Assembly: GCA_051294375.1 (NCBI GenBank)
Contig: CM119270.1
Span: forward strand, 13,465,904-13,529,903
Length of the DNA: 64,000 bases
Direction of reading: 5' to 3'
Origin: Paraspadella gotoi
Lineage: Eukaryota > Animalia > Chaetognatha
The notes beneath the pieces are model-generated. The model worked only from the letters and a program-made list of their open reading frames with translations. It was not told the origin of the DNA and searched no databases. A program made the position numbers and the translations under genes. Positions 32,401 to 38,400 of this stretch are shown one piece after another. The first letter of the stretch is position 1. Each line of letters begins with the position of its first letter.

Positions 32401-35400
32401 TTCAGTCTCAATCGACGCCGGTGGCGCCGTCCGTGGTCGTCTCCGCTCACGTCGCCGCCGTGCCCGTGGCGCCGACGCTCAAAAGGCGCGACGGCGTCAC
32501 TTCCGGTTTGAACGTTTCCTCGCTCCGCAGCGCCACCATCCTCGCCATGTCGAATCTCTTGAACGCCAACATCGACTCCGGTCTAATGCACTCCATCGGA
32601 TTGGGGTATCACAGGTGAGGATTTGGATTTTCACTTGATGCAGCTAGGATTACTTGCTCCATCGGGTTGAGGTCTCAAAAAATATTATCTTCTCTTATCA
32701 TTTTATCGGGCTTGGGAGAAGAGGCAAGGATCGTTTGTTATTAAAGTAAATAGTTTCCGAGGTCAATCTACGCATTTAAATTGAATCATCAAAAAATGGA
32801 AAATCTCTGTCACATCTTTAGTGTCGCTACTAGAGATTCCTTTAAGTTAAAAAGCTGGGGTTTTAGACGTATGGCTATCTTCTCTTTTTAACACCTTTGA
32901 GCTGGGCTATATGAGTGTAAAGGTCCTCCACCAACTGAAAACCATTTTTGCCCCTTCGCTTCCCGAAGGGATCTCCAAACTCGGGCGGCATTCATGGAGG
33001 TCCTCACCAAGATCCTTCAACAAGGGACGGAGTTCGACACTCTCGCGGAGACGGTGCTCGTGGACCGGTTCGAGCGTCTCGTCGAGTTGGTCACCATGAT
33101 CGGCGAGAAGGGGGAGCTACCCATAGCTATGGCTTTGGCCACGGTAGTCTCCACGCCGCACATGGACGAGTTGGCCAGGTGGATTATTGAGCGATATGAA
33201 AAGCTGCTGTATTGCTTTTGTATGGATGTTTTATTGATATTATTGATCACAAATAATGAAAAATTGTTTCGTCCAAATTTTATTTACATTTATCACAATG
33301 TTTAAATACTAATATTTTACTTAAGTTTTAATTTAATCTTTAGCGAATGTTCCCAACCTCCAACCCTTCGTTCATACATACGTAGTACTGAAAGAAGTTT
33401 AACTTTCTTCTTCTTTTCTTCTTATTACAGAGTGTTTGTAACTCTCTTCGATGCCAAGCACCTCCTTTACCAATTTCTCCACAACGTATTCTACAAGGAG
33501 GTGGAAGTTGCTGATTGCATGCAATCCGCCTTCAGAGGCAACGGCTTTGCCTCCAAGGTCATGTCTTTTGCCTTCAAGATGTACGGAAACAATTATCTAC
33601 AGGTAATGATTAGATATTGTTCAGACGATTAAAATCCCAAAATTGTCATCGTTTAGTTTTACCATTTCTTAAAATAAGTGGCAATATTGACTATTAAAGA
33701 GCTTGTATTTTTCTTGTATACGCAAAAAATACGCGATTATAATTTCCGATCTGAGCTGATTATTCTGAAGTGTCGGGGAGATCTTATCTCGGTTTATAAA
33801 CACTTGAATCGTTTCTTATTAGTCATGAAAAAAAACAAACTTTTTTTTAGTTACCTCGCTATTACCAACAGTTTTTTTAGACTTTTTTGTATATCTAACT
33901 TCTTTTTCAAAAAAAAAAACCTTCGAAAATTAAAAGAAAAGGGGAGGGGGAAAATCATGGCGGAGCAGCAATATCCAGGAGGAGCTCGTCCCAAGACGAT
34001 TGCCAATTACTTTAATCATTGCAACATTAACAGAGTGATAACCGCCGGCACGATTAACGAGGGACCCCAACTTTCTCGTTTCGACAGCGTAGAGCTCAGA
34101 CGTCAACTTCGAGAAGTACTCAAAGCTCATTACATTTCCACTTATGAACTCCATTCTTTTTTTCAATATATACGTTGTTCACCTCCTTTGAGGTTAACGT
34201 TGGACAACTTTTACTTTGATTTACGATGTGAATCATTTCACGATCATTTTGAACCTGGAGAAAAGCTATTGGATGTGTTGGAGAGAGAAGTTAATCACGA
34301 CAAGAAAAGATTAATCGTTACTGGCCGCCGATTAATCGGCAAAAGCGAGTCAACCAGAAAAATTTGCCGCGAATGGGCGAAAGGAGAGAAGTTCGGCAAA
34401 TTCCGATTCGTTGTCCGTGTTGATTTTTATAATGAACAAGGAGGGGGTCTGTGGGAAAATATTTCTACAACGCTCGAGCCGTTAAACACGCAAGGAATTG
34501 ACTCCAACTTGGGCGCAGAAATAGTTTTAGAGCACGAATACAAAACTTTGATTCTTTTAGACAACTTTGATTATGCGAAGAGCGAGACCAAAATATCAAT
34601 CCTCGATTACTTTAAAGTTGATCCCACGCCCCTCGAAAATATCACAATGATACTTTTCACAAGTCAAGAAAATATTTCCCAAAACCTGGTCTATGACTCT
34701 TTGCTGAAAATTATGCCCTTAACGGTGGAAGAAAGCAAGAACTTCCTTCTCAATACCTTACCTTTTTCTACTGAATCTAATAGGGAATTAGAGGCATTTA
34801 ATTTAGACTTTTTGGAATTCATCCCTATTTCACCTTTCAATCTTTTAATTTGCGTACTTTTTTGTGAAGGAGTGGTTGGCGCATCATTTCCATCGAAAGT
34901 AGGCGAAGTCTCTTGTCATTTCTCTAAAGATGACCCTAAATTGTCAAACAAATTCCTTGAATATTTCGTTTGCTATCCAGAAGATGTGATCAATTCGAAG
35001 TATGGCTTACGGACATTGTTTGCTTGGCTTAAAAGATTTTTTTCTTCAATTTTAAGAAACAACGTTATTTTGCCAGAAAAAATGATGACTGAAATTCTGT
35101 CAAAAGACTTTGACTATAAACTCATAGTCCAAGAAACTATTCAGTCAATGGACAAGTATGAAATTTTTTCTTCATTTTTAAATTTAAAAAAAAATCCAAC
35201 TGATTCTTTGAGAAAACAATTTGTTTTGAAGATTAAGTATTTCACAGACAATCAATTCGAGTCACTTTTTTTCAAAATCTCCGCAATCTTCATCCCTCCA
35301 AATAATACTTGTATTAAAGTCACTAACCCTCGCAAAGAAATGATCTATTACCGTTGCGGAGGAGGAAAGCCAAAATTAATCATCAACCCTTTACTCTGCT

Positions 35401-38400
35401 ACTTGTCCAATCATTTCAGATCGATCTCCCGAGACAGACTTGTCAATGCCGTCACTGATCACTTTTCTTTCAAAGAGATCGAAAGAGCAAAACATATGCT
35501 GTGCAGAGAAGCAAACGAAATGTTTATCCCGCGATTTGGGAAAGATCGAGTGAGAACCTCTCTTGAAGACATCGTGGAAATATTAATGACTTCGCACGAA
35601 TGTGGCGTTGCTTTGCCGATATTCGTCGTTGCCGACTATTCAAAAATCCTGATGCCAACCAAGAAAAATTCAGAGTCACTGCCAGAACAGGTTTCCCAGA
35701 CGAATGAACTTACCAATCTTGTTACACCTACCGCTTACGGAGATAAAATACCCTTCGATAACGTCCAAAAGGTCTCCTACAGTAGGCTTGGCTTCCCAGT
35801 GACGCTGCCAAAGAGAAAAACGATGCCGACAAACCGCTCCCTTCGCCGGAAACGCACTTTGCTCAGGATGCGCAAGTTTGAAGAAAGACTCAAGAGGCAA
35901 GAAAACTATAACGCAGCCCAAAACTCTCTGACTTTCGCTAAATCTGGAAGAGGTGAAGCAAAATACGAACCAATAATCCACCAAAATCTTGAAAACGCTT
36001 CGTCTATGGCCAATGATATGAAAATCCCTCGAGCTTCTGACAACAACAGAAATGAGCTTACAGCAATGCTTAGTAGCAAGACACAAATGATTCAAGCAAT
36101 GTCAATTGAAAACCAACAATATTCGAGCGCCAATGATTTTGCATTTACTGTTGATCCTCTGCAAAACCAGAATAACTCTAACATTATCCAAACTGATCTA
36201 CCAGAAGTAGCGGGAGCTTTACCGATAAATAATCTCGGGGGTTCTGGGACTGACGAAAGTATTGCTTCCATGAAATCAAACATTTTGCCTTCAATGATGA
36301 AGATGTTACAGAAATCGACTCAAGGAGACCATCAAGGATCGGGCTCAATTTTTGGGAACAACCAAGTGGCAGGTGATGAGGGACGAGAAAATCTGCAAAG
36401 CCACGGTGACTACCAAGATCATTCAGAAGGACTAAATGAAGTAATAGATGCTTTGCTAACAAGGATTAATCATCAGTATTCAAATGATGACACAAATGCT
36501 CCTACATTGATTTCTGACATATTGCCATCTATGATGTCTATGTTCCAGAAAATGCTGTTGGGAAAGCAACAAGAAACCTCTGGTGATGGTAAAGAAAGTC
36601 AGCCATGCCCGAGTGATGGACAAACTGTTCCGAATGAGAGAAACAATGTTTCATCTTTTCTAAGCGGTCGTCAAAATACTTCCTTCATGTCTGGCCTGTT
36701 TTCTTCTCTGATGGAGATGGGTGCTTCGATGGCCGATCATATTACACGGAATGATTTATTGGTGGATGAAAGAGAAGATAATCTGGAAAATCCTATGGTC
36801 GACGAAGATAGAGATTTATCTGATATTCCACTTGATTGATTTTACAGATTTTACAGACTTGATTCTTATATTAATCACAACGATGAAAAAATTGATTTAT
36901 TTACATGTCTTTGATTTTTTTTATATTTCATGGTGTATTAAGAAAATTATGTACCTAGAAAAATTATAATCAATATTAATCATAATGGCTAATTTTGACT
37001 TTATAAAAGTATTTGTTTGAAATATTTTATTTGATTGTTTAAACTTTATTAAGAATACAAAATTTTTAAGGCAACTATGTTTCTTACTAAAACTGAATTG
37101 TAAAAATAAATAATGTATTTTTTAGTCATTTAAAATTTTGTGGTATAGATTACTCAGTTTGACTTAAGATTTTTTTTTTTGTTATTGCGTCTTCTTACAT
37201 ATATTCTTATGCAGAAATTTTGTTGATTATCTTTAATTGAAAAATGACAACATCAAGTTTTAAATTTCATTGCTTTGTTTATATGGATAAAGAATATTTC
37301 TAGTGAGCTACTCGAGCTGTAGTTCGTTCACAGGGGAGAAGAAATAATATAAACAGATAAATAGTATTATAAATATAAGATAGGATATAAAGAAATAAAT
37401 AGTATAAATCTGGTAACCTCCGCGACAGATGATGATCGGGCCGGCCCTGAAGAAGATGATGGACGCGGGCGACATCTCTTACGAGATCGACGCCAATCGA
37501 CTCGAGGGCGAAGACCCCGACGAAAACAGAACGAAGATCACGCAACTCACGCAAGAGTAAGGGTTTGTTGAGATGGAGTGGATGATGTTGTCATAGGGTC
37601 GATGATGTTGTCATAGGGTCGTTGTAGCTTGTGGTTTGGTCCCTTGGTTTATCTTCGGATTGTTTGTATTTTAGGCGTCGTAAAAAAAAAAAGAACAATC
37701 CGAATTTTAAAAGTTCACTATATCATGTCGGAGTTACCGTTGTAATAATTTTAGGAGGGAAACCAATGAAAGATGAAAGCGTTAATATTTTATTTGTTTC
37801 AAAATCAAAATTTTCAGATTTATGAGCATTTTAACAACGTTGTCAGGGTAATTTATTAATGAATAAATAAAAAAATATATATTTTCCCTCTTTTTTCCAG
37901 CATCTACTGCAGAATAGTGAAATCGAAAAATCTCCTTCCTTCACAACTACGCAGTCTCATTCTCTGTCTCAATCAAGTCATGGCGCAACGATTCCCGCCC
38001 TCTGCGGTCCCGGTGAATGTCAAAAGGGTACAAGAAACTGTTCGAAAATAAATAGTCTAATACACGGTTTTTTTTTTATATTGACGACAATACTTTTTTG
38101 CAAGTTTTAACAAAAAAAAAAAAAACAAAAACAAACAAACTTTTAATATTTCCCTCAGAAACTAAAGCAAATTGTAATCACTGATGACCTCATCTTTTAA
38201 AGGCTCACCGACCGCTTGACCAATTTTACCCGGATGTGAGCCCGCGCGAGAACCCGATTCAGGCGGTCGGAATGGTTGTCTTTCTGCGCTTCATCAACCC
38301 GGCAATCGTCGCGCCCAGCGAGGCGGGACTGCTCGACCAAGAGCCACCACCGAGAATGAGGCGGGGACTCATGCTTATTTCAAAAGTCATGCAGGTTTGA

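What the first reader, a model, noticed from the sequence alone, without database searches (positions are those of the whole stretch)
35370..35665. Transposon ORF1-like domain integrated into the nested NTPase (possible decoy or sensor domain)
Seen: [44 protein letters not shown]...[12 protein letters not shown]...[15 protein letters not shown]. Recalled: this resembles the pattern INELLCF...F...EI..AK.LL...DI..L...PIFVA.DL.KLP at the N-terminus of ORF1 proteins of invertebrate CR1/L2-group LINEs (often mis-annotated 'mutant cadherin'). Inference: domain capture from a LINE, analogous to integrated decoy domains in plant NLRs, so the protein might sense or bind retrotransposon ORF1.
Basis: inference. 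Interest (0 to 1): 0.78.

Follow-up and report, generated by a model that had tools for sequence, protein, structure and literature searches.

The report
NTPase gene fused to retrotransposon domain
A gene hidden inside an intron of the neurofibromin gene joins a degenerate NACHT-like NTPase to the front domain of proteins that are likely the first gene (ORF1) of LINE jumping elements; the host likely keeps that domain as a docking module, and a role as a transposon sensor is untested.

Summary
Observation confirmed. 35370-35666 encodes aa 472-570 of an intronless 960-aa ORF (33957-36839, +) inside an NF1 intron. The domain hits 87 proteins (best E 3.6e-9; 3 are repeat artefacts). A profile built without the query scores it 91 bits, against at most 9.7 for 2,000 shuffles. 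In 94 of 99 family proteins the domain starts within 80 residues of the N-terminus, usually followed by a coiled coil and an RRM-like end. In 1 of 4 loci an overlapping ORF2 endonuclease follows. It is therefore likely a LINE ORF1 N-terminal domain, not a NACHT helical domain. The family has no Pfam or PDB match; the model is confident (pLDDT 93). Contigs from four other DNA samples and one spliced-RNA run bridge the fusion junction. Not supported: the CR1/L2 clade and the 'mutant cadherin' name. The NACHT match is below Pfam's cut-off. There is no death-fold or repeat sensor, the ORF1 coiled coil and RRM are absent, and no ortholog was found, so selection is untested. Best reading: a domesticated docking domain on a truncated NTPase (0.5). 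LINE sensor or decoy: 0.12. ORF1-host fusions are known in vertebrates; I found no NACHT case in print.

The parts
33957..36839 (+). Intronless nested ORF, 960 aa (P0001), same strand as NF1
   Evidence: one X3 contig (possible source sample) spans it; X5 pieces tile it
33432..33602 (+). NF1 exon upstream of the host intron (human NF1 aa 1243-1298, GAP-related domain)
   Evidence: PDB E 6e-19; spliced joint into it in X9
33603..37428 (+). NF1 intron (GT..AG, 3.8 kb) that hosts the nested gene
   Evidence: sequence; 3' boundary inferred from splice signal and reading frame
37429..37557 (+). Next NF1 exon (inferred)
   Evidence: X9 loose end at 37556 continues into the exon near 37902; no PDB hit alone
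34311..34589 (+). NACHT-like nucleotide-binding core, aa 119-211 (Walker A 34323-34346, Walker B 34548-34571)
   Evidence: Pfam PF05729 below cut-off; motifs
34590..35339 (+). Likely sensor-1, helical-1 and winged-helix region, aa 212-461 (ILFTSQ at 232, PFNLLI at 293)
   Evidence: motif positions, read against recalled NACHT motifs; no family hit
35340..35342 (+). Met462, ten residues before the domain; possibly the old ORF1 start codon
   Evidence: sequence; family domains start within 30 aa of the N-terminus in 80 of 99; inference
35370..35666 (+). LINE ORF1-type N-terminal domain, aa 472-570; homology fades at aa 564-567
   Evidence: AlphaFold pLDDT 93, pTM 0.84
35814..35906 (+). Basic patch, aa 620-650, NLS-like
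   Evidence: net +12 in aa 601-640; function inferred
35679..36836 (+). Low-complexity S/N/Q/D-rich tail with two copies of an ILPSMM motif (aa 776-799, 855-878)
   Evidence: no Pfam hit; no ORF1 coiled-coil or RRM-like match
37105..37110 (+). AATAAA, candidate polyadenylation signal
   Evidence: X9 contig 35930-37067 runs through the stop into this 3' region

Best explanation
The nested gene fuses a degenerate NACHT-like NTPase in frame to the N-terminal domain of a likely LINE ORF1 protein, and the host likely keeps that domain, predicted to be folded, as a protein-docking module on a nucleotide-gated scaffold rather than as the trigger of an NLR-type alarm. Shown: the fusion, its presence in several samples, and the domain's membership of a family that sits at the front of ORF1-like proteins. 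Inferred history: a full-length LINE landed in or just behind a NACHT exon, the frames joined near the old ORF1 start (Met462), and the ORF1 coiled coil, RRM and ORF2 were lost or eroded while the front domain was kept. Inferred function: the domain sits where NACHT proteins carry their second helical and sensor domains, and would bind whatever surface it binds in LINE particles (a host factor or a like domain), with ATP binding at the P-loop setting the assembly state.
For: Domain family and position: (80 of 99 start within 30 aa, 94 within 80; 56 of 61 long members have the C-terminal domain; 0 of 99 have a P-loop). The family profile matches coiled coils at positions ~100-170 and RRM proteins weakly at 226-306 (E 0.017-0.46). 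L002 has ORF1 overlapped by an Exo_endo_phos ORF, 39.1 bits over a 24.5 cut-off. The Capitella model P0066 joins the domain to sequence matching that ORF2 (40% over 73 aa, E 3e-11). Retention: 91.3 bits lies inside the leave-one-out range of 64 members (57-121, median 96) and 17 of 24 conserved columns are kept (members 14-23), while the adjoining ORF1 segment is unrecognisable (1.9 bits against a median 27.6). One 5.7-kb X3 contig runs unbroken through the locus, as expected if the domain is not a young multicopy repeat (inference). X9 holds spliced NF1 joints and contigs on the ORF, one across the junction.
Against: No ortholog was found (limited to 528-1680 aa and shared words), so purifying selection is not measured. 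The 3 variants seen in the ORF are all non-synonymous (two at depth 2.5, possibly errors). The NACHT match is below cut-off and has no PDB match; Walker B and sensor-1 deviate from recalled consensus. A proline kept by 98% of members is replaced at the domain's end. Family scores are biased because members were chosen by likeness to the query. No partner is known. No RNA contig joins Walker A to the domain, and X9's RNA status is a tool guess supported by its splice joints.
Confidence: 0.5

Rival explanations
1. Passenger: an in-frame LINE fragment in a lineage-restricted, drifting NACHT paralog. The domain does nothing and has not yet decayed.
For: No ortholog; NACHT below cut-off; 3 of 3 variants non-synonymous; near-invariant proline lost; the host's own LINEs may simply be missing from the protein libraries.
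Against: A 960-codon frame with no indel listed in four other DNA samples and one RNA-type run. The domain scores like a member while its ORF1 neighbour segments are unrecognisable. Terminal branch 0.8 with no close sister among 99 (104 columns, weak tree).
Confidence: 0.28
2. LINE sensor, decoy or restriction factor: the captured domain binds incoming ORF1p or LINE particles and switches the NTPase on, or poisons particle assembly.
For: The domain stands where NACHT proteins carry their sensor (recalled architecture). L1TD1 binds ORF1p (PMC11925450 abstract), and a genome-defence role was hypothesised for it (PMC4161310 abstract). Plant NLR clades carry DDE-endonuclease and BED domains (PMC5819176 passage).
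Against: The coiled coil, which drives trimer formation in L1 ORF1p (PMC12129022 Discussion), and the RRM are absent. No death-fold or other effector domain was detected. L1TD1 promotes L1 in one study, and neither L1TD1 nor Lyosin suppressed L1 in reporter assays.
Confidence: 0.12
3. The ORF is an alternative last exon of NF1, giving a truncated NF1-NTPase fusion.
For: Same strand as NF1; the frame is open for 93 codons upstream of the ATG.
Against: The three pyrimidine-tract AG sites upstream of the ATG (33850, 33871, 33880) are out of frame for the phase-0 donor at 33602; the four in-frame AGs lack a tract.
Confidence: 0.06
4. An ordinary NACHT-associated helical domain, or a chance resemblance.
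For: Its position follows the putative winged helix; weak Atlas leads under 0.8 pointed to NACHT-associated helical domains.
Against: 84 true hits, none with a P-loop; hhalign probability 97%, E 4.7e-11 to an ORF1-like alignment; no NLR chain among the 50 listed fold matches.
Confidence: 0.02

Closest known systems
Lyosin (L1 ORF1p-MYL4) and three other vertebrate ORF1p fusion isoforms (PMC12129022; abstract and Discussion read)
   Same: Part of a LINE ORF1 joined in frame to a host protein, with ORF1's RNA-binding parts incomplete.
   Different: Those use L1-type ORF1, are made by alternative splicing and have purifying selection shown. Here the ORF1 type differs, the fusion lies in one exon, the partner is an NTPase, and selection is untested.
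L1TD1 (PMC4161310, PMC11925450; abstracts)
   Same: Domesticated LINE ORF1 sequence; defence hypothesis; binds ORF1p.
   Different: L1TD1 is almost wholly ORF1-derived and binds RNA. Here only a ~95-aa front domain is kept.
Plant NLRs with integrated domains, including DDE and BED clades (PMC5819176; passages)
   Same: A foreign domain fused into a STAND-type NTPase gene.
   Different: Those are complete NB-ARC-LRR receptors whose baits mimic host targets. Here the NTPase is NACHT-like, lacks repeats and an effector domain, and the domain is parasite-derived.
Animal NACHT/NLR proteins (Pfam PF05729)
   Same: Walker A and B and downstream motifs in NACHT order.
   Different: Below Pfam's cut-off; no death fold, LRR, TPR, ankyrin or WD40 found; long low-complexity tail.
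ORF1 types I-V of the Jockey superfamily (PMC4120745; parts 1-2 of 6 read)
   Same: The donor family has a coiled coil and an RRM-like domain ahead of an endonuclease ORF2.
   Different: Table 1 lists PHD, RRM, CCHC, Tnp22, esterase and zf/lz domains; no helical N-terminal domain of this kind is listed, and the donor family has no Pfam match.

Membership tests
LINE ORF1 N-terminal domain family (donor) | Significant homology over the whole domain | tested here: met
LINE ORF1 N-terminal domain family (donor) | Homologs carry it N-terminally, before a coiled coil and an RRM-like domain | tested here: met
   94 of 99 within 80 aa; 56 of 61 with the C-terminal domain (profile built from 52 of them); RRM matches weak
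LINE ORF1 N-terminal domain family (donor) | Homolog genes lie directly before an APE-type endonuclease ORF2 | tested here: met
   1 of 4 loci by Pfam (L002), 1 by eye only (L001, 34 aa), 2 cut at the contig end; P0066 fusion model
LINE ORF1 N-terminal domain family (donor) | Reverse transcriptase downstream in the same element | tested here: inconclusive
   All 4 loci end too early; viral, genome and plasmid scans were empty
CR1/L2 (Jockey superfamily) clade | RT phylogeny groups with CR1 or L2 | not testable with these tools
   No RT recovered and no Repbase or Dfam on hand
Proto2/RTE-group clade | RT phylogeny groups with Proto2 or RTE-X | not testable with these tools
   Leads only: named hits are Capitella and Branchiostoma; Proto2 is reported in Capitella; 2 of 14 Proto2 consensus heads look distantly alike by eye
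NACHT NTPase (PF05729) | Score at or above the gathering cut-off of 26.7 bits | tested here: not met
   19.8-23.6 bits
NACHT NTPase (PF05729) | Walker A GxxxxGK[ST] and Walker B in NACHT order | tested here: met
   aa 123-130 and 198-205
NACHT NTPase (PF05729) | NBD-HD1-WHD fold | not tested
   Both fold jobs went to the domain; no alignment exists for the NTPase
NLR immune receptor | N-terminal effector (death-fold, TIR or similar) domain | tested here: not met
   aa 1-114 has no Pfam hit; only about 115 aa precede the core
NLR immune receptor | C-terminal repeat sensor (LRR, TPR, ankyrin, WD40) | tested here: not met
   No Pfam hit in aa 582-960; low-complexity tail
NLR with integrated decoy | The integrated domain binds the ligand and triggers signalling | not testable with these tools
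Domesticated transposon gene | Intact single-copy frame, transcribed | tested here: met
   transcription rests on one run of contigs, unstranded
Domesticated transposon gene | Purifying selection across species | tested here: inconclusive
   No ortholog found

The most novel reading that the evidence does not exclude
An animal NACHT protein that swapped its repeat sensor for a captured LINE ORF1 domain and uses it as bait to recognise or jam the retrotransposon's own particles: a protein-level, NLR-like surveillance of LINEs in an invertebrate, built on a fold with no solved relative.
Probability: 0.12. Interest if true: 0.88.

Novelty: new variant of a known kind. Interest (0 to 1): 0.52.

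Why it matters
LINE ORF1 co-option into host proteins is documented for only a few vertebrate L1 cases (PMC12129022). This looks like an invertebrate case, from a different ORF1 type, joined to a STAND-type NTPase; my searches found none like it in print. It also exposes a widespread ORF1 front domain with no Pfam or PDB match but a confident model. Selective retention of that one domain gives a handle on what it does for the element. If it is a LINE bait, it would be a new form of transposon surveillance.

Tried and rejected
No whole genome is held, so paralogs and host LINEs could not be counted. A word-indexed search with the domain alone found nothing, a sensitivity miss overturned. Atlas on the domain gave a best score of 0.82, a lead only; Atlas on an ORF1 homolog gave 30 unnamed eukaryotic clusters, top three 0.94-0.95 and commonest Arthropoda. 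The single-sequence fold was poor (pLDDT 42). Fold searches: no Foldseek match at E<=0.001 in PDB or BFVD; best Z 4.7, with death-fold chains at Z 3.4-4.1, rejected as common helical packing; this does not show a new fold. PDB sequence searches for the domain and the NTPase gave nothing significant; NCBIfam and PADLOC gave nothing. A profile search of 351-2000-aa proteins returned 17 hits of 363-477 aa and no NACHT fusion, with only 7,989 candidates scored. The ortholog search was empty. No listed RNA holder is on record as RNA. Runs X10 and X11 of other organisms gave no real cover even of NF1 exons and are uninformative. No second contig at >=80% lay over the domain in X3; a filter drops records, so this is no proof of absence. 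X9 has no cover in 4 wholly intronic bins or at 34328-34900; this is not used as evidence. No other ORF1 fragment was found in the window. Clade tests through viral, genome and plasmid collections were empty. The bivalve supplement shows only the first ~400 bases of each consensus, so its motif searches were uninformative.
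Full report
Setting. The window is animal genomic DNA; I did not determine the organism and no whole genome is held. Exons around the finding match human neurofibromin (E 6e-19 for 33432-33602, human aa 1243-1298; E 7e-30 for 39249-39608). The intron 33603-37428 holds an intronless ORF on the same strand, ATG 33957 to stop 36839, 960 aa.

Is the ORF real? One 5,753-base contig of X3, possibly the source sample, spans 32800-38100 without differences. Four DNA samples of another study (X5-X8) and run X9 of a third have contigs that bridge the junction at 35370; no indel was listed, and the three gap rows come from 40-100-base off-target contigs at A-runs. 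X9 shows GT..AG joints across two NF1 introns, so it holds spliced RNA, and it has contigs at 33959-34318, 34915-35140, 35219-35709 and 35930-37067 (12 pieces not shown). That suggests transcription but gives no strand, start or level, and no listed RNA contig joins Walker A to the domain. Three variants were listed in the ORF, all non-synonymous, two at depth 2.5.

What is the domain? It has no Pfam, NCBIfam or PDB sequence match, and a word-indexed search missed it. Full phmmer gave 87 hits; I dropped three repeat proteins, and a profile search added 15 new ones, making 99. None of the 84 true hits reaches a Pfam cut-off over the domain. A profile of 64 hits without the query scores the window's domain at 91.3 bits; in the shuffle control the real segment scored 97.6 and the best of 2,000 shuffles 9.7. 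hhalign gives 97%. In the family the domain starts within 30 residues in 80 of 99 and within 80 in 94. Of 61 proteins of 300 aa or more, 56 share a C-terminal domain (profile built from 52 of them); none of 99 has a P-loop. The whole-family profile meets coiled coils and, weakly, RRM proteins in PDB.

Is the family LINE ORF1? Four loci were recovered. In L002 the gene is overlapped by an ORF that passes Pfam's Exo_endo_phos cut-off. In L001 a similar start follows, 34 aa, too short to score. L003 and L004 end inside the domain. The Capitella model P0066 joins the domain to sequence matching L002's second ORF. This is the two-ORF layout of endonuclease-type LINEs (PMC4120745). No locus reached the reverse transcriptase, so LINE identity is likely rather than proven and the clade is open. 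Table 1 of PMC4120745 lists no such domain for CR1 or L2 subgroups. Named hits are Capitella and Branchiostoma; Proto2 is reported in Capitella (PMC10294476 passage); and 2 of the 14 Proto2 consensus heads I saw (of 54) look distantly alike by eye. That is a lead only, and the truncated supplements may bear on it. 'Mutant cadherin' was on 0 of 30 clusters looked up; the paper search for it (55 papers, 30 listed, none read) added nothing.

Structure. With a 65-row alignment AlphaFold gives pLDDT 93 and pTM 0.84: four helices clasped by two short strands. There is no Foldseek match in PDB or BFVD, and the best Z is 4.7 among 48,161 chains. This does not prove a new fold.

What was kept. The domain scores inside the members' leave-one-out range (57-121, median 96) and keeps 17 of 24 conserved columns (members 14-23), with the bias that members were picked by likeness to it. 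Homology stops at aa 564-567, where a near-invariant proline is replaced. The following ORF1 segment (1.9 bits against a median 27.6) and the C-terminal domain are absent. In a 100-row, 104-column tree it has a branch of 0.8 and no supported sister. The unbroken X3 contig suggests it is not a young repeat (inference). No ortholog was found, so selection is untested.

The NTPase. Pfam NACHT matches aa 119-211 below cut-off. Walker A is intact; Walker B and sensor-1 deviate from the consensus as I recall it. There is no PDB match. No effector or repeat domain was found; after the domain come a basic patch and a low-complexity tail with a twice-repeated motif. It is NACHT-like, and it fails the NLR membership tests.

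Mechanism. Most likely (0.5) the gene is a domesticated chimera: a LINE inserted at a NACHT exon, the frames joined near Met462, and only the front domain was kept as a docking module where the sensor would sit. History and function are inferred. A passenger fragment in a drifting paralog is the main rival (0.28). The sensor or decoy reading (0.12) lacks the coiled coil that L1 ORF1p uses to trimerise, and the closest precedents did not suppress L1 in reporter assays (PMC12129022 Discussion), though L1TD1 does bind ORF1p (PMC11925450 abstract). An NF1 alternative last exon is unlikely (0.06). An ordinary helical domain is refuted.

Prior art. ORF1-host fusions are known in vertebrates, and plant NLRs carry DDE and BED domains. 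Searches for a NACHT-ORF1 fusion gave 0 papers with all five terms, 11 papers with 10 listed and 52 with 20 listed; none of those listed describes one by title or abstract start, and the library lacks most subscription papers. Earlier scan notes held nothing on this place or sequence; one note on a lone ORF1 in a Lar intron is an unchecked parallel. Papers seen: PMC4120745 parts 1-2 of 6 and the supplement list; PMC10294476 passages and truncated supplement files 24 and 25; PMC12129022 abstract and Discussion; PMC11925450 and PMC4161310 abstracts; PMC5819176 and PMC11203168 passages; others as listings only.

Verdict. It is a new variant of a known kind, interest 0.52.

Noticed in passing
window 14216-15721 (+): A second long intronless ORF, 501 aa, AT-rich, with about six hydrophobic segments and no significant Pfam or NCBIfam hit; possibly a divergent chemoreceptor-like membrane protein (guess).
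   Followed up: partly
window 32304-32376 (-): tRNA-Lys(TTT) gene inside an NF1 intron.
   Followed up: no
window 17486-18875: Blocks of degenerate repeats, seen on both strands, that translate into repetitive open frames; probably satellite DNA.
   Followed up: no
window 36282-36590 (+): Two copies of an ILPSMM-containing, probably amphipathic motif in the nested protein's tail (aa 776-799, 855-878), possibly short binding helices.
   Followed up: no
protein hits P0003-P0124; L001, L002: This whole ORF1 type (helical front domain, coiled coil, linker, RRM-like end) is widespread yet has no Pfam or PDB match; several members have a short cysteine-rich segment ahead of the domain (P0009, P0021, P0056, P0062, P0068, P0074).
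   Followed up: partly
P0066 (Capitella CAPTEDRAFT_200504), P0021 (Branchiostoma C3YY00): Annotated 'hypothetical proteins' that are likely LINE-derived gene models; P0021 carries the front domain in a duplicated arrangement.
   Followed up: partly
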